Position numbers and translations under genes: made by a program. From assembly GCA_965178125.1 (NCBI GenBank), contig OZ237747.1, positions 868,001 to 932,000 of the forward strand: DNA of 64,000 bases. The letters are read 5' to 3'. The notes below the pieces were generated by a model. It was given only the letters and a program-made list of their open reading frames with translations, was not told the DNA's origin and searched no databases. The stretch comes from Bilabrum cf. latius. Taxonomy: Eukaryota. How positions within the stretch are numbered: position 1 is the stretch's first letter; every line of letters begins with the position of its first letter. This document shows positions 2,135 through 64,000 of this stretch, piece by piece.

Positions 2135-2340
2135 TGCGAGAGAGTCAGTGCAGTATGCCTACGATATGTGCCTCAATTATAATTCAATGCTAGCTGGCGG
2201 GTGCTGAACTAATTGTGCGAGCAGAAAGACACTCTGTGACTGTGTCCTCACAACTATTCCCAGCCAGAAACTTGAGTGGTTCGCTCAGCAAATGGAACTT
2301 TCGGTTGTTGGGACGCGCCCTCTGTGGGCGCCGGTTCCGA

Positions 2341-4206: not shown

Positions 4207-4342
4207 GTAATACAACAAACTCGCAGTCAAACTCGGAAAATTATGACAAAGTCGACAGTGAGGGAAGCAGTACAGTGCAGTGCAGCAAATGCATTGCACT
4301 GCTCTGCAAATGATCTGGACAGGTGCGCGTCATTAGAAGACG

Positions 4343-5438
4343 ATGGCCAAGTCTGACAAAGGTTCTAGCAAATCATCGGCAAGCGAGTCGAAAGGGACAT
4401 CATTTGTGGAAGGGTTCCAGAGATGGGCAGTGGCTGCGGTCAGTGCGAGCCTCGCTGAGACTGTCACATTCCCACTGGACACGACCAAGATTCGGTAAGT
4501 GTATCTGGAAAAAGTCAAGATTCGTAACACGCGCGCACCAATCTGGTCATTGTCGGGTCATTGTTGCTTTCGGATCTTTGGAATCACAATTGTGCGAGAG
4601 TCATTGTCTTCGCAGGCTACAGCTGCAAGGAGAGTTGGGCAAGGGCCTAGACGGCGGCAAGTTCGATGCCAAGCAGAGCCGTGGCATGTGGGCCACAGCA
4701 GCAGGGATTGCTCGGTAGGAGGGTATCATGTCGCTGTATGGTGGCGTGGAAGCAGCAGTCATTCGATAGGCAGTCTATGGTGGGATCGGCGTCGGGCTGT
4801 ACCAGCCTGTCAGAAAGCTCATCATGGGCAACCAAGACCCGAAGAGTGCATCCCTCCCATTGAGAATTCTCTGCGGCGGAATCACTGGCGGATTGGGACA
4901 GCTAATTGCACAGCCCACGGACACGGTTAAGATCAGGGTGCAGGCCGACGGCCGCCTCAAGCTTCAGGGCAAGCCGCCTAGGTACAACGGGGTGTTTGAC
5001 GCATTCAAGCGCATCGTGGCAGAAGAGGGCATCGCTGGGTACTACCGAGGACTTGGACCCTCTGTGTCGAGGGCGGCAGTGATCAACGGCTGCGGCATTG
5101 CTAGCTACGATCACACCAAGTAGCTGACCCTCAAGATCACAGGACAGAAAGAAGGCTTGTTCGCCCGGATCGTGGGCAGTCTGATCAGCGGCCTAGTCAG
5201 TGCACTGGTAAGCTGTCCCTTTGACGTTGTGAAGACAAGGCTGGCAAATCAGCCGTAGGGTGCAGGCAGGCTGTATTCCGGCATGCTGGATTGCGGGATC
5301 AAGACGATCAGGGCGGAGGGTGTGATGTCGCTGTACAAAGGATTCACGCCAGCGTACGCTAGGCTAGCACCGTGGCAGCTCGTTTTCTTCCTGGTATTCG
5401 AGCAGGTCAACCAGATGGTGTTTGGCAAGATGCTGTGA
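4343..5438 (+). CDS. Mitochondrial carrier (SLC25), uncoupling protein/dicarboxylate-carrier-like; exons 4343-4494 and 4616-5438
   Basis: Three Px[DE]xxKxR signatures (PLDTTKIR, PTDTVKIR, PFDVVKTR) and EGxxxxY[KRG]G motifs. Four in-frame TAGs (4716, 4767, 5121, 5256). Ends TGA 5436-5438. Confidence 0.93.
4495..4615 (+). other. Spliceosomal intron (121 bp)
   Basis: GTAAGT...TTCGCAG; removal restores the conserved TKIR|LQLQGE of the carrier. Confidence 0.9.
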
Positions 5439-5577
5439 TGCCTGCTAGCGAAGATTCTTTTCTTGTTCCACTTGTAATTTGACGCTGGTGAACACCACAC
5501 TCATGATGCATCAACTGCAACTCTAGCAGACCCGCCCGCCGGACCGACCGAATTGCCACCAACACCAGTGGCAGAGC

Positions 5578-11001: not shown

Positions 11002-11167
11002 GAGATGCCCGACCCCGTTCGTGACTCGGTTGCCTCACCTCATCCCTCCGACACCAGCTCTTCGACCACCCGACGCAGCTTGCTGCTGATGGACAATATT
11101 GCATCCAGCAGTACATGCTCATGGTGGTCCCAACTCTGCCCTAGCAACAGCAGCAGTGTTTCCTTTC

Positions 11168-14100
11168 TCATACGTATGCCGCAGGCCTGATTACGTTATT
11201 CAGGTTTGCAGAGCCATTTTTGGGATACTCCTCTCTTCCATTTCGAGGGACCGTAGCGGGCCGGTACTTGAGCTCCAGAAGCTCCGCGACACAACCCGTG
11301 AGCAACAGCTTCAAGCCATTGAGGGTCGACATGACCAGAGCAACAACTACGAACGCTGAGCGGTTTTTCGTTCGGGTGACCAGCACCAGCTGCACTGCGA
11401 GCTGCCCCACGTCCCCCAGCAGCTGCACGGTGCTATACTTGGCGATAGTGCGCCTCATGTTGTCTTGGTCCTTGTTTGAGCCCTTGAACAGGCTCAAGGC
11501 ATCCATGCCCAATAGTCCGCTGACCAGTAGATCCATAGAACTCACGCCAAAAACGCCCGTGATACACACGATCGCAATGACACCCCACCCGCTGCGCATA
11601 GACCTGAGGGTGGCATCACATGGGACCCCTTGCTAGTTGGCCCCGTTCGCAATGTGATCTGCATCCCTGACTACCAAGTAGCAGCATATTGCGTTGGCCA
11701 GCGTCGAAATGCAGAGAATTGCCAGGCTCACGCTTGCTATGGCACCGCTCTTGCAGCCATCCTGTGCACCTTGCAGGAGCTGCGACACGAGCCCAATATC
11801 AGTGAAGACGTCCGCAAGCTGCATGCCCAGCACCGCCAGTGACCACGCGGCTAAACTTGGCATGATCTCTGGAAGAACGAACCACGCGACGCCCGCCACG
11901 AGAAGTAGCATGCCAAACATTGACATCCCAAAGATGGTGAAGACGCTGTGCTTATCGTACCTGTCCGGGCATTCCTCCCCGCGGATCACCCAAGTCGCGG
12001 CCCCGCCAGGCCCCTTGCACCCGCACCAGTCAACCCACGGCAAGTTGGCGGCATCGAATACCAGACCCGTGACCTCATCTTTCGCGATCGACATGCCTGT
12101 CCAATTGCCCCACTGGGCCCCGGCTCGCTGCAGCTCCTACCGCAACAGTCGTACCACGCCGTCGGATGTAACGTAACTCTCGCTACGATGTTGTTGTTTT
12201 TGCTGATTATAATCGTGCCTGTCCATGGGATTCACACGGATCAGCACCAGGACCCCCCTATGTCCGCCGTTGTTGTCTGGATGTACCTCGTTCTGCTCAA
12301 CTAGTAGCCGGTCCATGATTTCTGAGGACAAGCTCGTGATGGAGCGTATTGCCACCATGAATTTTCTCAAAAAAAGAGGCGGATCTTGCTAGTACTGCAC
12401 CCATGGGTCCTAGGCCTGCAGTGCACGTCCAAGCAGCCGGCGCCTCTGTGTCTGCTGCTACTCGCCCTACTCAAGGGCATCCGGGTGCAACAGACGCACC
12501 ACGCACCAGTCGGGCTCGGTCTCACTGAGGACCTGGACTGGGAGGGCGGTTCCTGAGGGGGATGCGGTCGGTGTGGGCCTGGCTGTGGTTGATGCTGTAA
12601 CCGATGGGGTGGTGCTGGCCGACGTAGAGCTGGATGGCGTGGGGCTGGCCGTCGTAGAGCTGGATGGCGTGGGGCTGGCCGTCGCAGAGCTGGATGGCGT
12701 GGGGCTGGCCGTCGTTGATGCTGTAACCGATGGTGTGGTGCTGGCCGTCGTTGATGCTGTAACCGATGGTGTGGTACTGGCCGTCGTTGATGCTGTAACC
12801 GATGGTGTGGGTGAGGAACTTGGAGAAGGGCTAGGAGACGGTGTCGGTCGCAGGTCGTTCGCGAGTAAAACCCACACTGATCCTGCATCAGGGTCTGAGT
12901 CATCATCTTTACGGGCCCCTACAGCCATGTCTACTACCCCGTCTCCGTCCAGATCCCCCATCGATGCCACAGACCTACCAAAGTGGTCATTATAGGTAAG
13001 CTGCCCAGTGAAGCCGCCTTGCGTGTCCGATATCTTCAGATGCGACTTCACCGTTCCATCGGGTCGCAGGAACAGCACCCACAATGCCCCATCACCATCG
13101 TACGGAGCCCCCACAGCCATGTCCACCACCCCGTCTCCATTCAGGTCCCCCAGCGATGCCACAGAATTGCCAAAGTAGTCGTAGTTGTCCAGCCGCCCTG
13201 TGAAGCAGCCCTGCGTGTCCGATATCTTTGTATGCGAATCTACGCTCCCGTCGGATTACAGGAACAGCACCCAAACTGCTCCTCTATTAGAACCACCGTT
13301 ATCGTCATGATCTGCACCCACAGCCATGTCCACTACCCCGTCTATGTTCAGGTCCCCCAGCGATGCTACAGATTTTCCGAAAAAGTCCTATCTGTCTAGC
13401 ACCCCCGTGAAGCCGCCCTGCGTGTCCGATATCTTCGAGTGCTACTTCACCGTCCCATCGGACTTCAGGAACAGCACCCACACGGACCCGACACCAACGC
13501 CCCCATCGTTATCTGCGGGTGCCCCAACGGCTATATCCACCACTCCATCTCCATCCAGATCCCCAAGCGATACCATGGAGTAGCCAAACCAGTCATACGT
13601 GCTCAGCTGCCCCGTGAAGTCGCCCTTGTAATCCGAAATTTTCGTGTGTGATTGAACCGTTCCATCCGAGTCCAGAAACAGCACCCACACCGACCCAGTT
13701 CTGGCGCCTCCGTCGTCATCTCCACTCGCCCCCACAGCCATGTCCACCACCCCGTCTCCATTCAGGTCCCCCAGCGATGCCACAGAACTGCCGAAAAAGT
13801 CATAGCTATCCAGCACCCCCGTGAAGCCGCCCTGCGTGTCCGATATCTTCGAGTGCGACTTAACGCTCCCGTCGGATTGCAGGAACAGCACCCACACCGC
13901 CCCTCGTCTGTCAGACCCGTCATCATCGTGTGGAGCCCCCACGGCCATGTCTACCACTCCGTCTTTATCCAGGTCTCCCAGTAATGCCAAGCAATCACCA
14001 AACCAGTCATCATTGTCCAGCTGCCCCGTGAAGCCGCCCTGCGTGTCCGATATCTTGCTAGCCTCGCGCACCGCAGGTAGCTGCTATCCCGGCTGCTGAT

Positions 14101-17475: not shown

Positions 17476-17520
17476 TGATGCAATAATACCGTCCCATTAT
17501 ATGCGTGGTCCAGGTGCCGA

Positions 17521-17750
17521 GCCCTGGCCTGTTCCCTAGCCTCTCTGACCTCCTCCCGAGCTGCTGCCAGGGTCTGGTCACCACCTGCTGGCCCTCCAGC
17601 CCTTCCAGCTTGGCCTTCATCGCAGCTTCTCGCCGCATGGCCTCTCTATGCCTTGCTTGCAGGGCGCGGTACTCGCCTTCCATCTCGCGCTAGCCCGCAG
17701 ACCGTCCAACTGCAGTCTCGCTCTCTCGCCCACCTTCTCGGCCCGCGCCT
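17521..17750 (-). pseudogene. Inverted, frameshifted ~230-bp duplicate of part of the coiled-coil gene (33309-33534)
   Basis: Encodes MEGEYRALQARHREAMRREAAMKAKLEGLEGQQ, identical to the 32867..33481 ORF, with small indels on both sides. Confidence 0.88.
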
Positions 17751-18041
17751 GTTCGACAGTGGTGCGCTTGTTGGTTTCGCGTGCATCTATCCTCAATTTT
17801 GACCAAGTTGTGTTGTCAATAAGCACGGTGTCTTGGTTGACCTCCTGGCCGCGGGAACGGTTGCAGGAAATTTTAAACAACCTGACCGTGACGAGTGCCT
17901 TGCAATGGGTTGCGTGCCTATCATCATGGTTTACCAGATCTTGACCACCAGTTGTTCGGCGGCTGGATCCAGACAACCTACCTAGACTCTCCAGGTATAG
18001 GTAGCACTAATTTGCGCCTATCTATTCGTCTTAATTTTGGC

Positions 18042-42497: not shown

Positions 42498-45400
42498 TCA
42501 AAAAATTTCAACCACGGCACCTGCCAGCGCGAGCTTCCCTGGCTCCACCGCAACGGGCAGCCGCAGGGTCGCAAGAACAGCGGCCTTCCCGGCGCCTGGG
42601 TCAACCCTCACCAGCGGTATGGGAGCAAAAGCCCCACCCCGTCCGACAGACGGCGATGCACTAGTGCCCATAGTCTTTGACCCACCAGTCAGGTGCAGCA
42701 GCGGGAGTGCAGTGCCCCCGTTGACCGGACCGCCGGCCTCCTCGTCCTCAGCACCTCTGCCGTCACCGTCCCGACTCGTGGATGCAACGGCGGACGAGTC
42801 CGCCGAAGCAATGGAGCCATGATGCACAGAGCCCTCCGACTTCCCAGTCGTCCAGCAGCAGCCCCTGCAGACAAGACCCGAAAGGACCAGGCCACGGGAC
42901 GGTGGGTCCACATGCTCGTCAGCGGTCGAGCTGAGCATCCGAGACTCAACGGACACTTGCTCTAGGGAGCAGCCGAGGTACTGCACCGCCTGGCGCTGCA
43001 CCGCTGTCAGCATCAGCTCAGGCCGCATGAGCCCGCCCGCCCACACGACAGGGGGTACACCACCGGTGGATCCGCCGTACTCGTCCATCCACTCCTGTAG
43101 CTGCCGCCAGCTGAGTGCCAGGCGTTGCAGGCAGGCAGGCAAGCTAGTGCTGGAAGCAGGGGGTGAACCCCCTTGGATGGCATTGAACGCCTCTACCGCC
43201 AGACTAGCGGACCGCTCGTCTTGCGGTGCAACGGAGAGCAGATGTTGCCAGACAGGTGGCACAGTTCGAGCAGATAGGCACGCTGCCATGCTCTTCATGT
43301 CATCTGTCAAAGGTACCGAGCCCTTTATCCCAGCGAGGAGCGCCAGCACTTGGTCTACTATGCAGTGCACCGCAGTGGTTGCAGCACGCGCCTCGAAGGC
43401 AAACGCGACTGCAAACGGCCTGGACAGCATGTGCCCTGCGCCAGCAGCTGGAGTGGCAGGCACCAGTCCAGCTCCTCCGACACCTTCGCCCTCAAACTCA
43501 AGACTAACACCCTTCCATTCATCCACGATGTCCTGGGCAATCGACCGGGCGCCCATGAGGGCCCTCTGAGCTCCAGCATCTGACATCGCCCCGCCAGCCC
43601 CGTCGTCGCTGGCGCTAGTACCATTCGTCCTGGGTTCACTGAAATCGTCCATCCCAGCGCCCATCTGGACCCCGTCTGCTTCGGACCTGGCTTGGTCTGC
43701 AGATGTCTAGCTGTGAGCGGCCGGAACCATCGCTGCAACTGCCGCGAGTGCAGATCCACCGCTGACCGAATCGGCTGCAGAGGCAGCCGCGCCTGTCACC
43801 CCGTAGAAAGACGCCGCGTCGCGCTGGAGCACCTCCTACTCCCTTGCCCAGTCCACCAGATACGACACGCCAAACGACATTTCACCACTTACGCCGCCCC
43901 GCCCGTCCAGCCGCGGCTGCAGGTCCGGGCTAGCAAGTACGCTGGCACCTCGGGTGGCCGCCATGGTGCCTGCGCCAGAGGCTCCCGAGCCCCCCTCTAT
44001 GTGCCCATCATCTCCGCTGGTGTCTACTGGCAGCAAATTTGAGCCTCGCCGAGCAGAGAGACCGGCTGGCAGCCATTTTTGGGTCAGCACCCGAATCAAT
44101 CGGCGGTCCCACTCGTCACTGACGCGTCCGCCGTACAGCGCCTCCGAGAGCAGCTGCTGCACTGGCAGCCATGCATTGATGGCAGCCGCCGACTCGGGAT
44201 CTCCAGACGTAGATACCTGCAAAGACTCGGCCAGCGCAGGCAAGATCTGGGCCGCGTGCGCCACATCAGTGGCAGCAAAGGAGTACTTGCTGCCTCCGAG
44301 CCATCCGTTCAGGCCAAACCGGCCGCGCTGAGAGAGTGCAGCGTGCATCAGGCACACGCGCAGCATGACGGTGCGGCCGATGCTGTCGGCTTCCTGCCAA
44401 ACAGAATCTGACACTGCCGACACAGACTCGACCACGCCAGAGAGGGACCCAGAGGGGCTCTCATATGCCACAAGAGAGCTTTGCGAGACGATCGAAACAG
44501 GCACGCCAATACTCTCCTGCCGAGAGCGTGATGATCCCTCCACCACGGCTTCAGCCGTTAGGAACAATCGGAAGGAAGGCGCAACGATGCCAGCCTCGGC
44601 AATTGTCTGCTCTGCCGTGTCTCGAGGAAGCTGAATGCTTGCCGATCCTCGCATGCTATCCGCGGCTTGTGACACTGCCTGCAGCCAACGGCCAAGGCTA
44701 TCACGTGCCCATCCCATTGAGAGATGAATGTTCTCGAGAACCAGCCACGTCCCATTGCGCGCGGCACGAGAAATGGCAGCGTTCGCTTTGCCCTGCTGCC
44801 CGACTCCGAGTGAAACTCGCGACATTCCAACTGCCCCAGCGAAACCGATACGCTCGGAGCGGGTGGCTGCGTGCCGCGCCGATCCACGCTGCTGTTCTTG
44901 GATGGCTTCAAACGCCTGGCCGAGGCGAGCGGCAGATGCCACGAGATCCCCCACCGCATCAGCTCCATCCATAGATGCAAGAAGAATAGGCTGGAATGGG
45001 TCTGCCTGCATGGCTTCTGCCAATATGCTCTGCTGCCCTGGCGGCAGCTTGGAAAGAAGGGTCTAAATGGTGGTAGACTACCCTATTCTGGGGTTTGAAT
45101 TCGGATTCAGAGCACTTGGAAGCGTGACTGCGGCGAGGCGGGTCAGGGCGGCTTTACCGCGGTCGGGCCGAAGCGCCACGACAGCACATGATTTGTGAAC
45201 GGGCTTGTCATCTAGTTCCCGCCAATCCAACGGCAGCGTGGAATGCTCCGGTTCGTCGCTTTCAAGCCAGTTCTTGAACCTGCCTGGACTCGCCAACATG
45301 TCATCGAGGAGAGACGCACCTGAAGACGTGCCATGCCCTGTGAATGGATCTACGCTCCTGCTAAGGACGGCCGCCCCGATCCAAGCCGACAGCGGTATCC

Positions 45401-48400
45401 ATCTTGGTGACGTAGCAGCGGCTGCAACGCCGGCCCCAATGGCATCCTCTTCGGCTCCTGAGTGGGCCCCCTCTGCAGAGTTCCATCCCGGCTTTCTCGT
45501 GCTGAGGAACTGGATTGCATCTCCGGCATTTTCCATTGCAAGCAGCAGCGACTCTGGGTGCTCTGGCAGCAACGCAAGCTCGATACCCCTGGCAACGCCA
45601 ATGAGTTCGTCATCGTTCAAGGGTTCAGCACTCTTCGATGCAGCGGCCTGTGACCTGGAAGCCCTCGTGGTAGCACCAGCACCGGAAACAGAACTAGACG
45701 AGCCTGATTCTCCGGTGCGAACCCCAATCCCAAGCATCTTGCGAGCCTTGCGTGAGGATAGCGTACCAAGGTAGTCGTCTTCCCGAGCGACCTACAGCGC
45801 GAGGCCCGCGAGCAGAGCTTTGGCGTGATTCTGCTGGAATCCGCGGGCAACCCACTGCGCGATGACTGCGCGAACGCCAAGCTGCAGCTTTAAGCATCGG
45901 ACTGCCGACCGCCGAAGCAAGCCCTAGGACCGCAGCACGCCAGCGTCAGCGTCAGCTGCATCCGAGGAACTAGAAAAGGTATTAGGGTTTGCTGAATCCG
46001 ATGATGCGCTGGGTGGTTCAGCACCGGTGGCACCAGCGTCTTCTCGCATCGACTCCGAAATGACAGCTCTGAAGAATACCTTTCGCATGGTGTTGAGAGA
46101 CACGCCATACAGGCCGTGCAGCTGCTGCGACCCCTGAGCCAGCTACCACATGCGGACGAATTCGTTGGCGATCGGAGTGTACAGATTGGTGTATCGATCG
46201 AGCTGCATCCTTGCTTCGTCTGCCCTCTCCTTGGCTTCGTGGATGCTGTGCAGCTCGGAGCGCATGCCATTCAATGCATCCAGAAGCTCCGTGTCGTCAA
46301 GGATCGTCTTCGGCTTGTGGCTAGAGCCGTCGTCACGTTCGGCTCCCGTTGTACCGAACGATTCGGAATTGAAACTCAGCTGCTCCTAAGAGTTGCCGAA
46401 CGCAGCGAGTCGCTGCAGCAGCTGGCGTTCGATCTGTGCGAGCCGCACCTGTCTCTACGCACTAGCCACGCGGATTGCAGACAGTTGCTGTCCCACCTGT
46501 GGTTCGAACTCATTCACAAGCTGCTACGTAAGGTCCTACCGGATGCTGTCAGGAGTGGAAGGCCAGCTCACAACGGACACCAGCGACTGGGTGTCGGCCG
46601 TGACCGAGGCAGCTTGCGCGCTGTCAGGGTTAAATAGAAGCACGAGTCGGAACTTTGGATGGACAGGCACAAGCACTGAACCGATCCGCACCGCACAATC
46701 CGTCAGATGCACCTGATCGGAATTCGGTGCCGGTATTGTCCGCTCCGCGTGAGCCAGCGCGTCCTCGCCGACCTGCTCCGCACCTGGAGCGTTGAGGTCG
46801 AGCGCGTCGCTGGCACCCAAAGCCGCACCATCCTGCTATCTCTGAGCGTGGCGCATCTGCTCTTCGTATGCGGCGAGATCGGGAGTGCCGGTTCGCTCAG
46901 CCTCCATTTGCCTCTGGTGCAGTGAGTTGCCCTCCAGTAGCTCCTTGAGGACTGCAGGCAGCTGCGAATTCTTCGTCAGCGCGACAACGCTACCGCCCAT
47001 CGCAACTTGCCTACGCAGAACGCGGGCCCACTCTTCTTCAGGCCGGTCGAGATCGATCTAAGCCCCATTGCCACACAGGCCGTCCGGGTCTTCCCACCAC
47101 GGCCCCAGCCTCATCCAGTCCGGTTCAGGTGCCTATGCAGCGCCCTTGCCGCGCATAGACCGCCTTGCCCCGCTGGTTTGCTTGTTCTATGCAGAAGCGA
47201 TCGCATCGTAGACGAACCGAAGAACCGCACCGTGGGATTCATCAACTCCGAATGCCTCCATGGCGCGCAGCCTTAGAGCTGTCGCGCTGTCTGCGCCACC
47301 GCGCAATGCAGCCAGGGCTTTCTCAGCCTCATCCGCCCCTCCACTGTCGCCACCAGATCCAGCAGATCCCCCGGCAACGCCTGAGCTGCGTCGCAGCCAC
47401 GACAGGCTCTGCATCCCGGGATCCACAACGAGTGAGACACGCAGTGCCGAGATTGAGGATCCGATGGCCAGTGCTGACGCGAGTGCAGCCTCGCCAGCAG
47501 GCATGCCCTCGCTCCCTAGTGCGGCCACAAGTGCCTCCTGTGTGGATTTCTCCCCTTGCACCACCGACAGCAGCAGCTGGGAAGGGGAGAGGCCAGGGGT
47601 CATCTCGACGTCGTGAGTGCGCAGCAGCTGCGTCCACTGCTCCCAAAGCTGCGCTCTCCCCTCCGGATCCACCCCGCAACCGAAGGAAACGAATGCAGCG
47701 GCAAGCAATGAATCGCCGGCAGTTCGTCCGAGCCGCCTGCCCGATGTGGTCAGGTCCTGCTCCCACCTCCCTTTCTCCCTTGACATCCCTTCTAGCAGCT
47801 GCTCCGCAATCGTGAGTCTGCGCTAAAGATCCATCGTTTGTGCTTCGATCTGCTACTTCTCTTTGGTTGCCTCGGCAAACCTAGCCTGCAGCGCCTGCAA
47901 CCTCTCTTGCACGCTCCTGAGCTTAGCAGTCGCCCTGTGAAGCTCGTCCTCGGCTGCCTAGCGAGCGGCATTCGCGGCATCTACGCGCTGCATCAGAGGT
48001 AGACACTCCTAGTACTTGTCGTGGTATCTAACAGAACCAATGATGAATGCTGCCAGGTTACCGGCGGCGTATGACCGCGGTTTGATAGTGTCCGCATCGA
48101 AGTCTGGTCGGTCCAGGATGGGCCTGAGCGCGCGGAGCCTTGCGGCAGGAATGTGTCGCGGGTCTACCTCGTCCAACCGCCCTAAAAACTCGTCTGACTT
48201 GAGCATTGCCTTCTAAGCAGCATCCCATCCAAGACGAGAGGGACGCGTTTCACCTGATACCATGATCAGCACGGACTGCAGAACCAAGTGCACAATCGCA
48301 GGCGGTGCGCGCATGCCCCTCAATTCATCCACGCTGCTCTTTGACAGACCCCCGACCGCCTGCCGAGCAGCTTCCAAAGCAGGCGCAGCGGCAGCCAGGG

Positions 48401-51400
48401 CCTCTTTGGCCTCTGCCTCTAGATCCAGCGCTCTAGATGCTGCCTCGCTGGCTGCCATGCGCACATCCCTGGACTCGTCCTCCTGCTGGCGAGCCTCCTC
48501 CCTCTCGCGAGCCATCTGCTCAAGTAGCAACTGCGTTGCAGCCTGTCGCTGCTCTAGTTTCGTCTGGACGCCTTCCAGCTCTACGCGAAGCCCCTTCACC
48601 TATTCCTGCCCGTCTTGAAGAGCAGCGAGGCCCCGCTTCAGCTTACCGGCAGCGGTTGTTATGTTTTTGCGAGACAGCATGATGTACTGACGCATGTGCC
48701 ACGAAGCCTCCAAGAACGCCCGAGGAGTCACATGCACCTGGAACGAGCTGTCGTCTGCGTGAGACACGGAGCGCTGCACCGCGCTCTAAGAAGCGATCGC
48801 AAACGCATCGGCGAGCAAAGATGCAAGTTTCCTCTGCTTATCCTGCGAGATAGGCGAAGCCATGGTTGGCGGTAGGCGCGCAATTTGAGCCGTCCCGAAG
48901 CCTGACTGCGCACTAGCTGGAGCTGCCGGCTACGAAGGTCTATCCTCCTCCTTGCGTTCTGCAGCACCAGCACCTGAGCTAGGGTAATCAACTTCACTGG
49001 CAGATCCAGTCTTCGACGTGGATGGGTCAGCTCTCTTTGCCGCCGAATTCGTTGCTGCCGTTCCACACAGAATTGCTTGCACCGGCGCAACAGCATCGCG
49101 AAGCCCATGCGGTAAATCTAGTTTGGAGTCCAGTACAGCGCCAGCATAGTCAACCAGGGCCGATTTGGGCCACGGCCGTACCCAATCTACCGTAAACTTG
49201 GTGAGCAATGCGGGGCATCTCTGAGCGAAAGCGCTGAGGCTCGCATTGAGCGGGCTGCAACACGCCACTATTCGCAGGTTTTGCCTGAGGCGATGCATAA
49301 AATACTGCTGCAGGACAAGCTCCTGAGGCACGGATTTCTACCCAGATCTAACAGCACCCCCGACCAAGCCGAGCGCCCTTGCATCAGCGAGAAGATTGGG
49401 AGACTGGAGGACAGAGTCGATGTCCTCCTAGCTGAAGATCGTAGCAGAGAAGGACCAAGGATCTGCAGAATCACGAATGCACTGCAACGCTGCGACCGTG
49501 CTGGCTGGCAACTCCCTATTCTGACCACCTACCGACGGGATAGAGATTCGCAATACGCAAGGCCGTGCCGGAGTGAGACCTGCGTGCAACCAGGCAGCGC
49601 GGAAAGCCTTTCGGATCGCATCTGCTGGTGACGCAGAGCTGGAGCGCTCAGAATCGCCATCCTTGGAAGAGTATGACGTGGCGTCATCCGGATCGATCAG
49701 CTTGACGCCGGCGACTAGCGCAGCCATTCGAACGGATGACCTCTTGCCACAGCCTGATGGCCCCACAAGTAGCAGCCGCTTACATGCATCTGGTCTCAGA
49801 TCCTAGTTGGAGCCGTGCTCATCGAGACCCCTAGGATTTATCACCCGGATAATGCGGAATATGTGCCGAGTTGCGTCGCCAAACAGCACGGTCTGCCGCA
49901 GTATGTTCTCGAGGTCGGCCACAACTGACTCTGAATCGCTTGAGGAAGACGCCGCAAGCGTTCTGGGAGCCTGTTTCAAGAACGAAATAGACTCCTCCTC
50001 GGTGCCGAGGCAGATATACGCACTCTTGGGATCATCGACTGCTCTGGAGCTCGCCGAGCCATACCGCGCCGAGCACACGGACGTGTCGGTCGATTGGACA
50101 AACTAAAACGCGTCTACAGCCAAGCGAACCGGCAGGGCTGTGTCAGGGGAAGCATCACCACCGTCTTGCTCGTCAGCACCAGTACTGACTCCAATCGGCG
50201 TGCCAAATTCCCTCTCTGCGATCGACTTCACAAGTGTCGACATGCGGGTGAGCTGCTACTCTGATGCAATCCGGTCAGACAGCTCCCGACTGACCTCATG
50301 GACCCACAAGGCAGGCAACACCGAGCCACTGAGCTGGGCCCCGTCAAGACCCGATGCTTCACCTCCGAAGTCCCCGCCAGAAATAGGCGGAATCGACCCT
50401 CCCCTCGACGTCGCAGCAGAGGCCGGAATGAGCGGAAGGCCAAGCACCTCGGGTTCGTCAGTTGTGCCCTCCGGCTGCATAGCATGGATGCGCTTCACTG
50501 CAGCATCGTGCTGACTAGCGTTGACCCGACAGATTCCATTCACGACTCGCAGCACATCGGACAGTCCTGCATGAGTTTGTGGAAACACCTGCGTGGCCTT
50601 GAATAAGCTCTGATGAGTTCCGAATACCTGAACCACTGCAAGGGCAATCCTAGCCGATGTATCGGAAACAAACGAGGGAGACGCCTGCCAGGTGGACAGA
50701 TGGCCGACCACTCGTGAAGTCAACACGGCCTCCATTGCTGGCTTGGTCGGCTGCGGCAGACCGATTGGGAATAAGTACGGCAGCAGGCGCCGCGCCACCA
50801 GTGCAGACCCGGAAGGTGACGCCCCGCCCACCGCAGTTGTCGAGCATGTCGCAACTATTCCGAGTCCGCTCACACGCTTGAATGCCACGCCAGCTTCCGT
50901 GTTGCGCGCCCAACCGCCGAATGATATGTGCGACCTCAGCAGCTCAGCGTGGGCTTGGGTGCCGTACTTGTCGGCAGCCGGAAGGTGAAGGTCGTCAACA
51001 ATCACTATGCCCCTGCCACCGGCTGCCTGGCGGGCACCCCCCCCACTCGACTTGGCAGCACTGGGGCTAGCAGAAGCAGTGCCCTCTGGATTGGCTGCCA
51101 CCGAGTCTGAATACGAGAAGTATCTGCTTGCAGCGACGGAAGCCGCTGTGGCGGGCGAGTACCCAGTCGAGGCACCTCGGCCTAGAAGTCCCTCCATGGT
51201 GTGCTACAGCGCAACGCTTCCTGTTTGGGCGTGCAACGGCACCACCTGGGCCCAGCAAACATCCTGGCGCTCTCCAGGGCTGCCCCATACGTCAACGCTA
51301 CCGTTCACGATGGCTCGTACTGCAGCGGAGCATGCTTCAGTGTCGGACTCTAGACTCCTACGCATAGCAAGATCCGATGATGCCATTGGATTCGTCAACC

Positions 51401-54400
51401 GGCCGGCAGTAGACGCTCCAAACTCTGCCAGGGGCTACGTCCAACAGTTATCGTTCTCTGGGGTCGTTGTGATGGCACCCGCCTTCCCCCTGCTCCCAGG
51501 GCCGCCCTGCATGGATCGAGCTGACGGCGGCCCGTCAGCGTATCCATCTCGATGCGCAGCGGCACTTCTAGACAAGAAACGGAAGACTACGTCTTGAATG
51601 CGACCAGAGCCGCCACTTGAGGAACCAATGGACCTACCTCCGAGCCGCCTGGAATCCAAGGAGATGTCCTCTACCGCCATGAGCCCATCATCTCCTGCGC
51701 CGCTACTCTAACTCGTGTCGCTGAAGGACACAGAGTTGCCAGCCGCAAGCGCGAACGCAGTGATGCCGCTATTCGAAGGACCTGCAGCCAGTACTGGGAA
51801 TCCACGCGCAACGAGAAGCTGTGCGGCACGAAGCCTTGAAGACCTAGTCGGGAATGGCAGAAAGGACAGCTTCTCGCCAGTGTAGCTAGCAGCTCCGATG
51901 GAGGGAAGCACGTCGGCGTATCTGGCACGGTCGTACTTGCCTGGGTTGCGGCGCCTTCGCAAGCAAGCTGCAGCCACGGCCTACTGCACTGCAGCGACTT
52001 CAGCAGCGGACAACACAGACTGACCGGATAGATTTTTCCAGTGAGCCAGTGCAATCGACACATCAGCCGCGGGAATCCACGCCGTGCCTGCAGCCGGTGA
52101 AGGCACGTACTGCTGCCGATCAGATCCCGATCCCGCGCTTGCAGCACTAGATTGGCGAGCTTCCGGCACGGCTGCATTCGGGTCATGCACAGGTACATAC
52201 GCCAGGACGGAGTTGAACTCTCGAAGCTCCGACGAGGAGCCATCGACTGCGCCCGCAGCACTAGCACCGCCTGATGCAGACCGCACCGTGTCCCTGAGGC
52301 ATTCGGCCAGGCAGTTGATTGATTCGGCCAATGCATCCACATGGGCACCCTGGGGCGGCTCGCCGCCTCGCTTCGTTGCTTGCGCTGCGAAGAAGGAACC
52401 GGAGTTAAGCAGCATCCTGGTGAACGCCAACTCGTCAGACAGATCCCCAAACATGGTTTCGACTTGACTGGCCACGTCTCCGCTGCCACCACCAGCTCCG
52501 GCGGACGCGTCACCAGGCGGCACGCCGCTGGATCTGCTTGATCCGCTGGAGCTCGGGTAAGCGCTTCCAAGGGCACCGCCGAGGCCCCATATCGTCGCGT
52601 AGACAGACAGGTTGGTTGCCTTGCCCTGCAGCTCGGCAAGCGTAATGTCTGATTCAGTTGAAACCTGCGACTCAGCAGGCTTGTCGTCTGACCGGCCCGA
52701 CTGAGCCTTTGCCGATTGAGCGGCGTCTTCGCTGCCGTATGCAGCCAGCTTGGCACCAACATTAGCATCAACAAGCCCTGCAGCCAGCATTGACAACACT
52801 CGTTGCACAAGCACCCGCATAGTTCCCTCGGTGGAAGCCGCACCGGTCGCGCTGTGTCTGAACAGGCCAAGGCCTGGCACCTTCTCAAAGATGTGCTCAA
52901 TCAGCACATGCACCGTCAGCTCGCACCAATGTGCTAGTCCAGATGCCAACCGAGCCGGTGCCCCTACTGCACACCAGCTGCGCTCCATTTGCAAGCAAAA
53001 TGATCGCAGGGTGTCCTACCAGGTCACCGCGTTTGACGGGAGGTACACGATGCCGCAACGCGAGACGGTCGCAGGGGTCGCATTCTCGAGGGAAGAGGTC
53101 TCTATCAGAATGCGCTGCGCAGGGTGCAGCTCGATTCTCTCTCTAGACGGCAGCACCAGCGTCTTGGTATCGTCCATGACTGAGTTCAAGTCTTCGATCC
53201 AGTCAGCGTCCACGGTGCCATCCAGCACCAGCAATCGGGACCAGGGCCCTTGTGTTGAAGAGGCCTCGCCAGCACTGAGCTCGGCTGCATGGCTCCGTAC
53301 GTACGCCGTCAACTGACCATCAGACCAGTCCCCGCTGGCATCAAGCTTGCCATACAGGCTGTCGCTAATCATAGACTTTGGTAAAACCGTCGATGCCATC
53401 TGCTGAATGTACTTGACAGCAGCCAAGGGCATCTTTCCTTGGGACTCTGCTGCTTGAATGCCGGTCTTGGCTACCATGAGTCTCCACACGGAAGTCTTGC
53501 CGCATGAGGGCTCGCCAAGAATAATGTTTGCGTGCCTAATGCCCATCAGCTGAGAGAGCCTGTCGACTCCAGTCATGAATGCGGACCCCGTCTGCAAGCC
53601 AAGGGCAGCCGCTGCAGTGCGGACCGGCGACGACGAGTCCTAGTCTGCCGCGGCGAAGACAGCACCGGACTGAGACATCGGCGAAGACATCGATTGAGGG
53701 ATGGACGAGATCTGCGGAAATAGCTCTTCGATCAGGCGATTGAACACGCTGACATCTCCGCTGCCGCCGTCCAAACGAGGCGAGTAGGTCACCCTGACCG
53801 ACTTGACAAGGGCCTCCACCTCTGCATCCTCGCCCTGACCGTCCCCACGCAACTCAGCTGCATAGGTGAGGCAACCCTTCAGGGCTCGCAGCCCCCAATC
53901 ATACCTGTTGCGGGGCACGAGGGCCCGGGAAGCGAGCTGCACCAGACGTACGAGTCTCTTGGACAGATCTTGCGCGAGCGAGAATCCGAGCGAGAGCAAT
54001 ATGTTGGCAGAGATTGCTTCCAGATCAGGCCGAACCATAGCGCATGGTCTGAAGAGAGCAGACACGTTCTGTGGCAGGTCCACGCGCCCGGCATAACCAG
54101 GATTCATGGTGATGAACGCACTAGTAGTTGGCTGGATGCGAGACTCGATCGTTGCGAACCGCGCCCTGGGTACATCCTCTGACAGCCAATGGCGGACAGT
54201 GGCTGGTGCTTTGAGGCCACCATCGTCTGGTCTACCTGGCCGTGGCGATGCTGCTGAGTCAACACTATGACCACTGCGCGGTCGAGCGGCCAGTACTTGC
54301 CGCAAAACTGCCTGCAGCGTTCGAAGCACTTCAGCCACAGAACTAAGCACGGAGGCGTTGATGCGATTGAACTCATCGAAACAAGCCCAGCCACCGTTGC

Positions 54401-57400
54401 TTGCGACAGTGCGCAGCACGGATGCTACGTTACCGGCCGTCGTCTGCGGACCGCAGTTGGTCACTACGACGGGGAGCATGAGGGTCCTTCCGAGGTCCTT
54501 CACCGTCTCAGTCTTTCCAGTCCCGGCGGGTCCTGCAGGGGCACTACCGAGGCCTAGGAGCACGGCTTGCGAAAACGTGAGGTAGGCGCGGTCTGTCAAC
54601 GGAGTCACCACTAGTCGAGGGCAGGCACCGTAGAATTCGCAGCCCAGTCCCATGGAGAGACCTGCGATCTGCAACTTGAACGATCCTTCGCATCCAGTTC
54701 CGAGTGCTTCGCCCCCGTCACCATCCGACCCACGATCATGGCCAGCATGCCGGCCGCTATTGCCTTGGGCCTCGGTATCAGGGTACATTCGCAGCTGGCT
54801 CTGCCACTACCACATGCGGGTGCTAGCTGGTACTTGCGATTCGGAAGAGTCAGAGGTAGCTAGCTTGCCTAGAGCCTACGCTGGATCTGCAAGGCCGTCT
54901 GGAGGAGATACTTCGCTGCTAGACGCGGAAGCTGAGCTTATTCCCTGAACCGCTCGCATGATTCCTTCCGTGACTTCGAGCCAATGCACGTCTAGCGTGA
55001 TCTGTAGAGCAAGCTTGCGCCTGTCTGACTTCTTAAGCGTACTTTTTCTTACCGACTGCACCAGCACATCGAGGCCTCCTCGAATGGCTTCAATGCAGTC
55101 ATGCATCGGCTTCGGGCTGCCCTAGTCTGTGGTAGCGAGCGCCGTCTCCACTGCGTTGGTCCAAACGGCGTGTGACGCAGCCAATACCGACTGTGCGCCG
55201 TGGCTTGCAACCCAGTCGCCCCGGGCTGACAAGTCTCCACTCTCTGCCCAGGGATGGGCGGCTTCCAACGCCGTTTCGCAGGCGCTGGCAAGTTCATTAC
55301 GCATGTGGTATTCTGACGAAGCCAGCCAAGCTTCCAACGGACTACCAGTGGTCAAAGACGGATCGCTCGCAGAAGAAGAATTGAACATCAGAATCTCTGA
55401 GTCCGGGGACTGCATGCCGGTCAGCCTGTGGATGTGCATCTCATCTCCATCGGCAGACCTCGGTACTTCGCCTTCATCAGGTTCTATCTTTTCCACGAGC
55501 AGCTTAGAGAGACCTGGGAAGCACCACCGAGCAAACTCCGAGGCGAGCGGCAGAGCATGCCCGCAGGCAAGCAGCTTCAGCAGCTACGAATCGGGCAGGA
55601 AGCAGAGCCTGGGTGACTCTGCTCGCCTCTCTTCCAGGTACGCCCGCAAAGCAGCTTGGCACTCCTCAAGTGTAGCAAGGAGCGATTCCAGTCTGTCTAG
55701 TCGCCCTTGCCCGGCACAGCACCGCACCGCCACGGGATCGCGTGAGCAATCAATCACGTACGACTTGTACTCGTTGTCAACGACCGTAAACTCCTGCGCG
55801 GCTTCGGGAAGCGCGTCAGCAACGGTCGATACTTTGCCCTCGCCCTGAGAAGAAGGGCTGAAAACACCTACCATGGAGGCCCAAAGCTGTTGCACGCGGA
55901 CCCACACCTCGATCACGTTGCCGATCGAAGCCAGTTGCTCGAACAGGCTTTCAATCGGTTCGCGGAACGGCGCCGCGTGTGCTTTCTGAGCCTGCATGGC
56001 TCCAAGCTCTGACAAATCGTCCTCAGCTTTGTCTCGAACCGTCTCCGACGAAACGAGGATCCACACGGCGTCGGCGCTGATATCTTGCAGATCCGAGCCG
56101 TCATCAGCTGCAGGCTTGTTCGATTTATCGATGCCACCACCGGTAGCAATACTCCCCAACTCGTCTGCAGACACGCTAAGCAGCTTGAGGGGAGCGGTGC
56201 TCCAATACTCCTGTATGGCAGACAGCCTTCTCTCGATGCGTATCTCCTTCTTCGCTCCGTCCACGATGCCGAGGGCCTGGGTGGAGAAAGAGTGCAGCCG
56301 AAGCTGGAGCACATCTCCTAGGCGCAGATTCTTCCTCATCGTGTCGTCGGCCAGTATCGCATACGTACGGTTGGCAGCTATATCGACGGATCCGTCTCCG
56401 ACAACACTAGCGTGTGCGCTGCCCATGCGCTGCAGACCGCTCACCATAGAACTACCTCCGCCTCCCAGACCAACAACGTGAGACCCGAACTCGTCAAGGC
56501 CAGCAATCGACCGTTGGCCGCCAGCATCAGACGGCTCCTGGAGCGCATAACATATCACATCGCCCAGTATTCCATCGGATGATAGCTTGAAGTCGACCAT
56601 CGCGAGCTGACCCAGGGAAGCCTGCGCCCGCTAGACTAGCTGCTGCCAATGGCGCTGCTTGATGGCCTCACCACGCAGATCGCTGCAGATCGGCAGCGAT
56701 TTCTGCATGAGATTCACCATCTTGTCCACGCTCTTTTTCACGGGCCATCTCTTGGATGACGCAGGGAGCTTCCTCAGAATCTGCGAGGTCTGCTTCAGGG
56801 TCATCATGCTGGTACCGAAATCGAAGGTCTCGAAGGCCTGGTCGGCCCAAGACGAGTACTGGTTCGCCAACGAGACGAGTGAGTCCCAGCAAAGCTTGTT
56901 TCCTCTCAGCTGAGCGGCACAATCGTTCAATTGTTCGGCTCCTATCGATGCGAGCTCCTCTGCCGAAATGAGACGCCCGGCACCAGCTTCTTCACTGCCG
57001 ACAGTACCGGTATCATCCTGTGGCTGCCTTGGCCCCCCACCATTGCCCTTTCTCTCCCCGGACTGCCCATCATCCTGCAGTACAGCGTCAAAGAGGCGTT
57101 TCTTCGCACTGAGGTCCTTGGCCTCTTCAAGCATCGATCTTAGATCTTCGTTCAAAGAGCCAAGCCGGCTGTACGCCCAGTCCGCGGCAAAACTGACAGA
57201 TTCAGGTGCAAGCAGCTCTTCGATACCGATTGAGTCCTGCGTATCGAAGCTGTTCCCAGTCACGCCAATGATGTCACCGATATCGTCCAGGCTAGCTCCG
57301 CCCTGCCCGAGCCCGACGCTTGCTGAGCTGACGCTGCCGTCCTGGCCTGCACCCGCGGCTCGTTCATCTTCGCTGTCAGCCTACGCCTTAGTTCGCATCG

Positions 57401-63400: not shown

Positions 63401-64000
63401 CCACGCCTGCCAGACCTCCGCCCATCTAAGCCGCCGATTCCCAAGCCTGCCGAGCAACCCTGCTGCCCCTCTGGGCCGTACTGCGAGGACCCCCGCGCGC
63501 TGATTCGCTGCCCCAGCTGCCCACCGGTGCCCGGGCAGGAGGGAGGGGGCCGCTCGTAGACCCACGAGACCCGCCATTCGGAGTCCAATGCGAGCTAGAC
63601 CCTGCACCTGCCCCAGCCCCTGCCCCAGCATCGGCCCGGCCAGCACCGGTGCCGCCTTGGAGGGCGAGGGCAAGGGGATGCATCGAAGCATTACCACCAA
63701 GAGGATCGCCGTCACTTGCAGCCGCTTCTCTAGCGCTAGCGAGCGGACTATCGGGACGTACGCTGCCCGCCACAGAGCTGCTCGCTCCGTCCCGCCTTGC
63801 ACTGCTGGCAGGTGCTCCAGCTCTGAGTCCCTCTTCCGCTGCATCTATGGCCTGGGCACTGGCCAGCGAGCCGACAACGACCTCTACCTCAACGTCCTCT
63901 TCTGTGAGAGGCCCTGCATGCAGTTTATACACGTATACGCACCTTGCAGGTGGTGCATCTGCCGGTACGGATCCTCGGCTAGCGTGCGATCCAGGCGCAC
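42498..64000 (-). CDS. Axonemal dynein heavy chain, outer-arm beta-like, very long and divergent; 5' end beyond the window
   Basis: One frame of ~7167 codons interrupted only by TAG. It contains DHC_N1 (FELDFW, NMPPTAGRIVW), linker (QRHWQQL, PRLCFL), AAA1 (GPAGTGKTETVKDLG, CFDEFNRI, FITMNPGYAGR, YDWGLRA), AAA2 (GEPSCGKT, WIEDLNSVMDD), AAA3 (DDLHLPAADKYGTQ), AAA4 (GPSGCGKRS), stalk and AAA6 (WLVLENIHL). Ends TGA 42498-42500. Confidence 0.95.

What the first reader, a model, noticed from the sequence alone, without database searches (positions are those of the whole stretch)
4716..5258. Conserved-motif evidence that TAG encodes glutamine (mitochondrial carrier)
TAG 4767-4769 sits in AAVIR*AVYGG, the position of the conserved RQxxY glutamine of UCP/dicarboxylate/oxoglutarate carriers. 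TAG 5121 is in YDHTK*L, where these carriers commonly have YDxxKQ. An otherwise intact carrier gene holds four TAGs and ends at TGA. This favours Gln over Leu, Glu, Tyr or pyrrolysine.
Basis: partly seen in the sequence, partly recalled or inferred. Interest (0 to 1): 0.8.

Follow-up and report, generated by a model that had tools for sequence, protein, structure and literature searches.

The report
Nuclear genome reading TAG as glutamine
This stretch of a GC-rich eukaryote's nuclear genome uses the stop codon TAG as an ordinary glutamine codon while keeping TAA and TGA as stops, a rare but already described kind of genetic code, and the mitochondrial carrier gene is one clear example of it.

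Summary
A UCP-like mitochondrial carrier gene (exons 4343-4494 and 4616-5438, one GT..AG intron, TGA stop) has in-frame TAGs at 4716, 4767, 5121 and 5256. A sequencing-run contig spliced exactly at that intron keeps all four TAGs.

One column is diagnostic: RQ, with Q in 74 of 94 homologues. In the second Q is a plurality (27 of 115). The other two are uninformative. On the four columns Gln beats His or Lys by only about 1-2 ln units.

Close relatives are decisive. Standard-code ORF fragments about 95% identical to the window's proteins carry Q opposite 9 of 9 aligned window TAGs (a tenth by ungapped extension). They carry Q opposite only 1 of 2180 other non-Gln residues. Their own stops fall on our Q or our TAG.

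TAG is sense window-wide: 150 TAGs in 14 ORFs, and ORFs up to 7166 codons against 641 under the standard code. TAA is not: about 57 expected if synonymous, one unexplained in-frame case, and seven ORFs end in TAA.

This is the UAG=Gln, UAA/UGA=stop code known from Iotanema and a few ciliates. The organism is unidentified. The tRNA and eRF1 could not be examined.

The parts
4343..4494 (+). Exon 1 of the carrier gene. It runs from the ATG to the split codon CG|G and encodes MAKSDK...PLDTTKI(R), including the first PxDxxK signature.
   Evidence: The exon end is confirmed by the joint 4493->4615 (cut +1) in an X7 contig.
4495..4615 (+). Intron, 121 nt, GTAAGT...CAG.
   Evidence: Sequence. A spliced contig in run X7 skips 121 nt with GT..AG ends (table 5).
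4616..5438 (+). Exon 2 of the carrier gene, ending in TGA at 5436-5438. It holds the rest of carrier repeat 1 and repeats 2 and 3 (PTDTVKIR, PFDVVKTR).
   Evidence: Mito_carr 2.3e-55, 3 stretches; UCP1 1.2e-46, UCP2 9.9e-45. The X7 contig covers 4615-5474 with 0 differences.
4716..4718 (+). In-frame TAG, codon 85 (GIAR-TAG-EGI). The column is variable.
   Evidence: T in 42 of 90 non-gap homologues and Q in 3. T in UCP1 and UCP2. No close relative covers it.
4767..4769 (+). In-frame TAG, codon 102 (AAVIR-TAG-AVYGG), at the conserved RQ of helix 2.
   Evidence: Q in 74 of 94 non-gap homologues, and in 43 of 46 homologues at least 50% identical. Q in UCP1 and UCP2.
5121..5123 (+). In-frame TAG, codon 220 (SYDHTK-TAG-LTLKIT).
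   Evidence: Q in relative P0002 (98% identical over 204 aa) and in the P0022 cluster (85% identical). Q in 27 of 115 deeper homologues, V in 26.
5256..5258 (+). In-frame TAG, codon 265 (RLANQP-TAG-GAGRLY), in a variable loop.
   Evidence: Q in P0002 and in the P0022 cluster. Deeper homologues are mixed: A 17, K 15, R 15, V 13, Q 9 of 106.
42498..63998 (-). Outer-arm-type dynein heavy chain ORF of 7166 codons, open at the window end, with 62 in-frame TAGs, no TAA or TGA, and a TGA stop. It is the main source of the close-relative test.
   Evidence: Relatives' fragments carry Q opposite TAG at residues 4265, 5262, 5392, 5604, 5821, 5825, 6307 and 6721.
13256..13258 (-). Single in-frame TAA between two same-frame FG-GAP ORFs. 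It is the only candidate TAA sense codon in the window.
   Evidence: It lies in register with Q/D/K/R of the paralogous repeats (LFL-Q-SDGS). It is unexplained.

Best explanation
The window is nuclear DNA of a GC-rich (about 59%), gene-dense, intron-poor eukaryote with mitochondria and flagella. Its cytoplasmic ribosomes read UAG as glutamine, while UAA and UGA still terminate.

The gene at 4343-5438 is an expressed, spliced, intact carrier of the UCP/DIC/OGC group. Its four TAGs are ordinary Gln codons, and TAG makes up about 16% of Gln codons in this window.

Shown here:
- TAG is in frame in 13 of 14 large ORFs.
- TAG is kept in a spliced contig.
- TAG is interchangeable with standard Gln codons between this genome and close relatives.
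- TAA and TGA end the ORFs.

Inferred from other lineages with this code (PMC5304391, section 9 read):
- UAG is decoded by a tRNA-Gln with anticodon CUA, one mutation away from tRNA-Gln(CUG). This anticodon cannot pair with UAA, which explains why only UAG changed.
- eRF1 has probably lost affinity for UAG.
- TAG codons then arise from CAG by C-to-T transitions.
For: (1) Close relatives. Nine ORF fragments are 94.8% identical to the window's translation (2144 of 2262 non-TAG positions). They carry Q opposite 9 of 9 aligned TAGs. They carry Q opposite only 1 of 2180 non-Gln, non-TAG residues, and opposite 77 of 82 CAG/CAA codons. A tenth TAG (dynein 5825) faces the terminal Q of P0209. P0207 matches the window at 100 of 100 other residues and has Q at the TAG.

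(2) These fragments were called under the standard code. They stop opposite our TAG (6764, 6312, 5330, and 3661 for the 66% relative) or opposite our Q (4438, 5607, 5826), and they start just after our TAGs. TAG and CAR therefore swap places between the genomes.

(3) The 85% relative (P0022, P0120, P0121) has Q at both carrier TAGs it covers.

(4) Carrier column 102 is Q in 74 of 94 homologues. Q ranks first on the four columns in all three homologue subsets.

(5) ORF lengths under the alternative codes. There are 150 TAG, 568 CAG and 215 CAA in 19,404 codons.

(6) TAA is not synonymous with TAG. About 57 in-frame TAAs are expected at the CAA/CAG ratio and one candidate is seen. Seven of the large ORFs end in TAA and the others in TGA.

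(7) A contig spliced at 4494/4616 keeps all four TAGs.
Against: Deep-homologue columns of the dynein do not single out Gln. Over 21 usable TAG columns Ser (-60.31) and Gln (-60.42) tie. With conserved columns only, the top candidate changes with the threshold (D, Q or N), and Q is first in 1 of 3 settings.

Fragments from more distant relatives (55-66% identical) have S, E, R, S, R opposite five TAGs, so 0 of 5 are Q.

In the FG-GAP repeats, one TAG aligns with S in 4 of 4 paralogous repeats read by eye.

I did not see the relatives' DNA. That their Q residues are CAG/CAA and their stops are TAG is inferred from fragment boundaries.

All fragments at least 90% identical may come from one relative genome.

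No tRNA lies in the window and no genome is held, so the decoding machinery is unseen. There is no protein-level evidence.

One in-frame TAA (13256-13258) does not fit a strict 'TAA = stop'.
Confidence: 0.9

Rival explanations
1. TAG is a sense codon but encodes another amino acid. Ser is the most serious candidate, as reported for the green alga Scotinosphaera. His, Lys, Glu and Leu are the others.
For: The dynein deep-column likelihood puts Ser level with Gln. Relatives at 55-66% identity have S at 2 of 5 TAG positions. One TAG in the FG-GAP array aligns with S in 4 of 4 paralogous repeats. On the carrier's four columns His and Lys are only 1-2 ln units behind Gln. The precedents UAG=Ser and UAG=Leu come from the PMC11687900 discussion.
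Against: In relatives about 95% identical, 9 of 9 aligned TAG positions are Q, and S, L, E, K, H and Y each appear at 0 of 9. In the same alignments the relatives' residue is Q at 0 of 235 of our Ser, 0 of 230 Leu, 0 of 105 Glu, 0 of 48 Lys and 1 of 37 His positions. Carrier column 102 has S in 1 of 94 and L in 1 of 94.
Confidence: 0.03
2. Both TAA and TAG are glutamine codons (NCBI table 6 type, as in Ulvophyceae, hexamitids and many ciliates). On this reading TAA is merely rare because the genome is GC-rich, and only TGA is a true stop.
For: There is one in-frame TAA at 13256-13258. It joins two same-frame FG-GAP ORFs (373 + 695 codons) and lies in register with a Q in a paralogous repeat.
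Against: There are 150 TAGs but at most 1 TAA inside 19,404 ORF codons, against about 57 expected at the CAA/CAG ratio of 0.38. Reading TAA as sense adds no long ORF and extends ORFs by only 8-57 codons apart from the FG-GAP pair. Seven large ORFs end in TAA; one (5578) lies 140 nt from the convergent carrier gene's stop.
Confidence: 0.07
3. The TAGs never reach the ribosome or are not real. They would be removed by RNA editing (U to C) or by further introns, or the gene is a pseudogene, or they are assembly errors.
For: Nothing positive. This is the default suspicion for any gene with in-frame stops.
Against: A contig in run X7 spliced at the predicted intron covers 4615-5474 with 0 other letters and 0 gaps. 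Contigs of X5, X6 and X8 over the gene also show no differences in the listed pieces. TAGs occur in 13 of 14 large ORFs, including a 7166-codon dynein. Relatives share several of the stop positions. Caveat: the tool only guesses that X7 is RNA, so a spliced DNA copy is not formally excluded.
Confidence: 0.01
4. [quoted passage not shown]
For: It cannot be excluded from 14 ORFs. ORF ends were defined by TAA/TGA, so a TAG terminator upstream of them would go unseen wherever the C-terminus is not conserved.
Against: In the two genes with homology-defined C-termini, conserved sequence continues after the last TAG to a TGA. In the carrier the last TAG is codon 265 of 324. In the dynein the last TAG is 6764 of 7166, followed by the Dynein_C domain. 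Relative P0129 ends within one residue of the dynein's TGA.
Confidence: 0.08

Closest known systems
Nuclear code of Iotanema spirale (Fornicata): UAG = Gln, UAA and UGA = stop (Panek et al. 2017, PMC5304391; abstract and sections 7 and 9 read)
   Same: Only UAG is reassigned, and to glutamine. UAA and UGA terminate. In-frame UAGs are scattered through ordinary genes. Even there only about 41% of conserved UAG columns were Gln-dominated, close to the figure for canonical Gln codons, which matches the noisy deep-column signal seen here.
   Different: Iotanema is an anaerobic gut flagellate known from a transcriptome. This window comes from a 59% GC genome with a UCP-like mitochondrial carrier. 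UAA was the main stop in Iotanema (104 of 119); here TAA and TGA are both common ORF ends. No relationship between the two was tested.
Ciliates with UAG = Gln only: Hartmannula sinica, Trochilia petrani, Protocruzia tuzeti (McGowan et al. 2024, PMC11687900; abstract, introduction and discussion read)
   Same: The code table is the same. UAA is retained as a stop. A suppressor tRNA with anticodon CUA is proposed as the reason UAG can change alone.
   Different: That paper gives 27.4-53.6% GC for Phyllopharyngea, below the 59% seen here. A contig of at least 64 kb with 14 genes and 99-121 nt introns does not look like the small chromosomes I recall for that group (recalled, not tested). The best solved-structure match of the dynein is an outer-arm beta chain whose entries I recall as Tetrahymena. 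That is only a weak lead towards alveolates.
NCBI translation table 6 (UAA and UAG = Gln: many ciliates, Dasycladales/Cladophorales/Trentepohliales, Hexamita, Streblomastix, Amoeboaphelidium)
   Same: A stop codon is reassigned to glutamine. The likely route is mutation of a tRNA-Gln anticodon.
   Different: TAA is not used as a sense codon here: at most 1 against about 57 expected.
UAG = Ser in Scotinosphaera; UAG = Leu in the rhizarian exLh and TARA phyllopharyngean ciliates
   Same: UAG alone is reassigned and UAA is kept as a stop.
   Different: The amino acid differs. S and L each appear at 0 of 9 TAG positions in close relatives, which have Q at 9 of 9.
Uncoupling proteins and related SLC25 carriers (UCP1 8g8w, UCP2 2lck; database names 'SLC25 uncoupling protein 27' and plant-type 'PUMP1')
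   Same: Three Mito_carr repeats. PxDxxK signatures on helices 1, 3 and 5. The RQxxYGG motif on helix 2. About 300 aa. The best solved matches are UCP1 (1.2e-46) and UCP2 (9.9e-45). The closest database proteins are 57-64% identical.
   Different: No phylogeny was made, so orthology to UCP versus the dicarboxylate or oxoglutarate carriers is open. Uncoupling or transport activity is not shown.

Membership tests
Nuclear code UAG=Gln with UAA/UGA=stop ('table 15' pattern; Iotanema type) | UAG occurs in frame within many unrelated, otherwise intact genes. | tested here: met
   150 TAGs lie in 13 of 14 large ORFs. The longest ORFs rise from 641 to 7166 aa when TAG is read as sense.
Nuclear code UAG=Gln with UAA/UGA=stop ('table 15' pattern; Iotanema type) | UAG positions correspond to glutamine. 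| tested here: met
   Q stands opposite 9 of 9 aligned TAGs in relatives about 95% identical, against 1 of 2180 for other residues, and opposite 2 of 2 in the 85% relative. Carrier column 102 is Q in 74 of 94. Deep dynein columns are undecided.
Nuclear code UAG=Gln with UAA/UGA=stop ('table 15' pattern; Iotanema type) | UAA and UGA are not used as sense codons and terminate genes. | tested here: met
   There are no in-frame TGAs and at most one in-frame TAA (13256) in 19,404 codons, against about 57 TAAs expected. ORFs end in TAA (7) or TGA. The one TAA is unexplained.
Nuclear code UAG=Gln with UAA/UGA=stop ('table 15' pattern; Iotanema type) | UAG is not used as a terminator. | tested here: inconclusive
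   Only two genes have homology-defined C-termini, and both end in TGA after their last TAG. Fourteen ORFs are too few.
Nuclear code UAG=Gln with UAA/UGA=stop ('table 15' pattern; Iotanema type) | A tRNA-Gln with anticodon CUA, and no tRNA with anticodon UUA. | not testable with these tools
   ARAGORN finds 0 tRNA genes in the window. Rfam gives 0 matches. No whole genome is held.
Nuclear code UAG=Gln with UAA/UGA=stop ('table 15' pattern; Iotanema type) | eRF1 N-domain changes that weaken UAG recognition. | not testable with these tools
   eRF1 is not in the window and no genome is held.
Nuclear code UAG=Gln with UAA/UGA=stop ('table 15' pattern; Iotanema type) | UAG is present in the mature mRNA, so there is no editing. 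| tested here: met
   The X7 contig is spliced at 4494/4616 and carries all four TAGs, with 0 other letters over 4615-5474. The tool only guesses that the run is RNA.
NCBI table 6 (UAA and UAG = Gln) | UAA is used as a Gln codon alongside UAG. | tested here: not met
   At most 1 TAA against 150 TAGs, with about 57 expected. Reading TAA as sense adds no long ORF.
UAG = Ser (Scotinosphaera type) or UAG = Leu (rhizarian exLh type) | UAG positions correspond to Ser or Leu. | tested here: not met
   S and L each appear at 0 of 9 positions in close relatives. Column 102 has S in 1 and L in 1 of 94. Weak contrary signals are recorded under the rivals.
Mitochondrial carrier family (SLC25, Pfam PF00153) | Three tandem repeats of about 100 aa, each with a Px[DE]xx[KR] signature. 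| tested here: met
   Mito_carr matches at 2.3e-55 in 3 stretches in exon 2. PLDTTKIR, PTDTVKIR and PFDVVKTR are read directly.
UCP subfamily of SLC25 | Orthology to UCPs rather than DIC, OGC or other carriers, and proton-leak activity. | not tested
   The best PDB matches are UCP1 and UCP2, and sources name the closest hits 'uncoupling protein 27' or PUMP1.

The most novel reading that the evidence does not exclude
This would be a previously unreported, independent origin of the UAG-only-to-glutamine nuclear code. It would sit in a GC-rich, aerobic, flagellated, gene-dense eukaryote that is neither Iotanema nor one of the known ciliates.

The code would be shared by a clade spanning at least three divergence levels, because relatives at about 95%, 85% and 55-66% protein identity all show ORFs broken at the same places.

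The clade would have a high GC content, which argues against AT-driven 'codon capture' as the cause. It may also show occasional decoding of UAA (the in-frame TAA at 13256).
Probability: 0.4. Interest if true: 0.7.

Novelty: new member of a known kind. Interest (0 to 1): 0.58.

Why it matters
Nuclear codes in which UAG and UAA have different meanings are rare. The papers I read list one fornicate and three ciliates for UAG=Gln only. Such codes bear on the question of why the two codons usually change together.

A further lineage at 59% GC would be a useful counter-example to explanations based on AT pressure. It would also give a new eRF1 and tRNA-Gln(CUA) pair to study.

Practically, any standard-code annotation of this genome and its relatives cuts almost every gene into fragments. 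The database entries found here (204-, 170-, 101- and 99-aa pieces of a carrier and a dynein) show that this has already happened.

Tried and rejected
- **Whole genome:** none is held, so no search for tRNA(CUA), eRF1 or rRNA was possible.
- **tRNA and RNA families in the window:** 0 tRNAs and 0 Rfam matches at gathering score.
- **Dynein search at 'near' lengths:** only 2 hits, of no use for columns.
- **Deep dynein columns (70 homologues):** undecided between Ser, Gln and Ala, and between Asp, Gln and Asn depending on the threshold. I do not count them for or against Gln.
- **Metagenome scan with relative P0121:** its own contig was not found. The best loci were 71% and 66% identical and are standard-code organisms (30% and 68% GC) with no in-frame TAG in the exons read. 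One search pattern contained '...HTKQ', so these loci are biased for Q at column 220 and were not used for counts.
- **Protein atlas:** For homologue P0003 it gave only generic carrier clusters and no useful taxonomy.
- **Green-algal TGTAA poly(A) signal:** found downstream of 1 of 12 ORF ends, so it gives no support for a chlorophyte.
- **Sequencing runs:** no RNA holder is listed. The spliced contigs are what I rely on.
- **Earlier findings of this scan:** nothing on this genome or sequence; only unrelated recoded phages.
- **Literature:** no paper in the searched library describes a GC-rich non-ciliate eukaryote with UAG=Gln only. Subscription journals are not covered and supplements are closed, so this does not prove it is unpublished.
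- **Amoebophrya sp. ex Karlodinium:** considered and rejected. It is described as AT-rich with all three stops in frame (abstract and passages).
- **Organism:** it stays unidentified.

Full report
**The observation.** The region holds a two-exon gene. The ATG is at 4343 and exon 1 ends at 4494. A 121-nt GT..AG intron follows (4495-4615). Exon 2 runs from 4616 to the TGA at 5436-5438. Exon 2 matches Pfam Mito_carr at E=2.3e-55 in three stretches. Its best solved relatives are UCP1 (1.2e-46) and UCP2 (9.9e-45). The three signatures PLDTTKIR, PTDTVKIR and PFDVVKTR are intact.

**RNA-level check.** One sequence search found eight runs from four studies that hold this stretch. I laid four of them on window 1-20000. 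A 952-nt contig of run X7 joins 4493/4494 to 4615/4616, skipping 121 nt with GT..AG ends. It then covers 4615-5474 with no differing letter and no gap. The spliced form therefore retains all four TAGs, which argues against editing, hidden introns and assembly error. Run X6 has spliced contigs at two other introns (14181-14301 on the minus strand, 18127-18225 on the plus strand). The tool only guesses that these runs are RNA.

**The window as a whole.** Under the standard code the longest ORFs are 641, 603 and 543 aa. With TAG read as sense they are 7166, 2681, 1818 and 1209 aa. Reading TAA as sense alone changes nothing at the top of the list. Fourteen large ORFs (19,404 codons) contain 150 TAG, 568 CAG and 215 CAA, and 13 of the 14 carry at least one TAG. 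They include an ankyrin protein, FG-GAP and TIG proteins, TPR and LRR proteins, a PRMT and an outer-arm-type dynein heavy chain of at least 7166 codons with 62 TAGs.

**TAA is not sense.** If TAA were synonymous with TAG at the CAA/CAG ratio (0.38), about 57 in-frame TAAs would be expected. The only candidate is one TAA at 13256-13258, which separates two same-frame FG-GAP ORFs. Seven ORFs end in TAA and the others in TGA. The code is therefore UAG sense, with UAA and UGA as stops.

I aligned the spliced protein, with X at each TAG, against the 118 proteins. I then repeated the counts without the two close relatives.
- Column 102 (R-TAG-AVYGG) is Q in 74 of 94 non-gap rows, and in 43 of 46 rows at least 50% identical. 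UCP1 and UCP2 also have Q.
- Column 220 (YDHTK-TAG) has Q in 27 of 115 and V in 26. UCP1 has E and UCP2 has D.
- Column 85 is T in 42 of 90 and Q in 3.
- Column 265 is mixed: A 17, K 15, R 15, V 13 and Q 9 of 106.

An empirical likelihood over the four columns puts Gln first in all three homologue subsets. His is only 1.1-1.5, Lys 0.9-2.2 and Ser 1.7-4.5 ln units behind. For comparison, only 7 of the carrier's 15 canonical Gln codons sit in Q-dominated columns. The motif evidence points the right way but is not decisive alone.

**Deep homologues of the dynein gave no verdict.** I used 70 homologues and 21 usable TAG columns. Ser (-60.31) and Gln (-60.42) tie, and Ala is 0.9 behind. Using conserved columns only, the winner is D, Q or N depending on the threshold. 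The conserved TAG columns are dominated by D, E, L, Q, K, C and D. Canonical Gln codons of this very divergent dynein sit in Q-dominated columns only 16 times in 56. This ambiguity matters because UAG=Ser has been reported in a green alga (PMC11687900 discussion).

**Close relatives are decisive.** The protein databases hold short ORFs from other assemblies that are 91-100% identical to the window's carrier and dynein: P0002, P0127, P0128, P0129, P0173, P0174, P0201, P0207 and P0209.
- Over 2262 aligned non-TAG positions identity is 94.8%.
- Opposite our TAG codons these relatives have Q at 9 of 9 aligned positions. These are carrier codons 220 and 265 and dynein residues 4265, 5262, 5392, 5604, 5821, 6307 and 6721.
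- They have Q opposite only 1 of 2180 of our non-Gln, non-TAG residues, and opposite 77 of 82 of our CAG/CAA codons.
- A tenth TAG (5825) faces the last residue, Q, of P0209.
- P0207 equals the window at all 100 other residues and has Q at the TAG.

**These fragments were called under the standard code.** They begin just after positions where we have TAG. They end opposite our TAG (6764, 6312, 5330) or opposite our Q (4438, 5607, 5826); one end (3450) is ambiguous. Within a few codons the two genomes thus swap 'TAG then CAR' for 'CAR then stop', which is what synonymous C/T changes would give. An 85%-identical relative (P0022, P0120, P0121) also has Q at both carrier TAGs it covers.

**Evidence against Gln, stated in full.** Fragments only 55-66% identical have S, E, R, S and R opposite five TAGs. 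One TAG in the FG-GAP array aligns with S in four paralogous repeats. I did not see the relatives' DNA. All the fragments at least 90% identical may come from a single relative genome.

**Mechanism.** Shown here: UAG is a frequent sense codon (about 16% of Gln codons), it is kept in a spliced contig, it is exchangeable with CAG/CAA, and UAA and UGA end ORFs. Inferred from PMC5304391 (section 9) and PMC11687900 (introduction): a tRNA-Gln with anticodon CUA, one mutation from tRNA-Gln(CUG), reads UAG but cannot pair with UAA, and eRF1 has reduced UAG recognition. Neither could be examined, because the window has no tRNA gene and no genome is held.

**Comparison with what is known.** UAG=Gln with UAA retained is documented for Iotanema spirale (PMC5304391). 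For Hartmannula sinica, Trochilia petrani and Protocruzia tuzeti it is documented in PMC11687900. UAG=Leu and UAG=Ser variants exist elsewhere. Table 6 (UAR=Gln) is excluded here by the lack of TAA sense codons.

**Identity of the organism.** The organism is unidentified. It has 59% GC, dense genes, 99-121 nt introns, a mitochondrial carrier and an outer-arm dynein. The dynein's best solved match is an outer-arm beta chain; the organism of those entries is my recollection, not a tool result. Five literature searches found no description of such a lineage. The library is incomplete and supplements are closed.

**Verdict.** The finding is real and its interpretation is correct, with probability of about 0.9 for UAG=Gln with UAA/UGA as stops. 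It is a new member of a known kind of code variant. It is possibly an independent origin, which only placing the organism can decide.

Noticed in passing
window 13256-13258 (minus strand): A single in-frame TAA joins two same-frame FG-GAP ORFs (13256-14377 and 11168-13255). It sits exactly in the repeat register ('VWVLFL-TAA-SDGSVDSHTKISD' against 'VWVLFL-Q-SDGSVKSHSKISD'). It could be a recent nonsense mutation in one family member, a read-through site, or rare TAA decoding.
   Followed up: partly
window about 14675-15341: This stretch has many contigs with loose ends and variant letters in all four runs laid. It has no convincing ORF and no Rfam match. It may be small exons of a gene whose other exons lie elsewhere, or a repeated element.
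   Followed up: partly
window 42498-63998 (minus strand): A dynein heavy chain of at least 7166 codons in a single exon, about 2500 residues longer than usual. It has long Ala/Ser/Gly-rich insertions between recognisable AAA, stalk and C-terminal domains and is only 27-36% identical to other dyneins.
   Followed up: partly
dynein residues 3453, 5871, 5952, 6069, 6307 (proteins P0130, P0228, P0202): A second, more distant set of relatives (55-66% identical) also has ORFs that start or stop at our TAG positions, so the code is probably shared by a wider clade. Opposite our TAGs they carry S, S, R, E and R rather than Q.
   Followed up: partly
window about 30400-30950 (plus strand, C-terminal part of the TPR ORF 28877-31192): About eight tandem copies of a 19-residue unit (GTSGSRGRHGPAKASRGAA) follow a TPR domain.
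   Followed up: no
window 32001-34000: A local composition anomaly (GC 0.67, GC skew +0.24, AT skew +0.35). It coincides with an 855-codon Glu/Ala/Arg-rich coiled-coil ORF (31370-33937) that has no Pfam match.
   Followed up: no
window 14181-14301 (minus strand) and 18127-18225 (plus strand): Two further introns (121 and 99 nt, GT..AG in gene orientation) are shown by contigs of run X6 that join across them.
   Followed up: no
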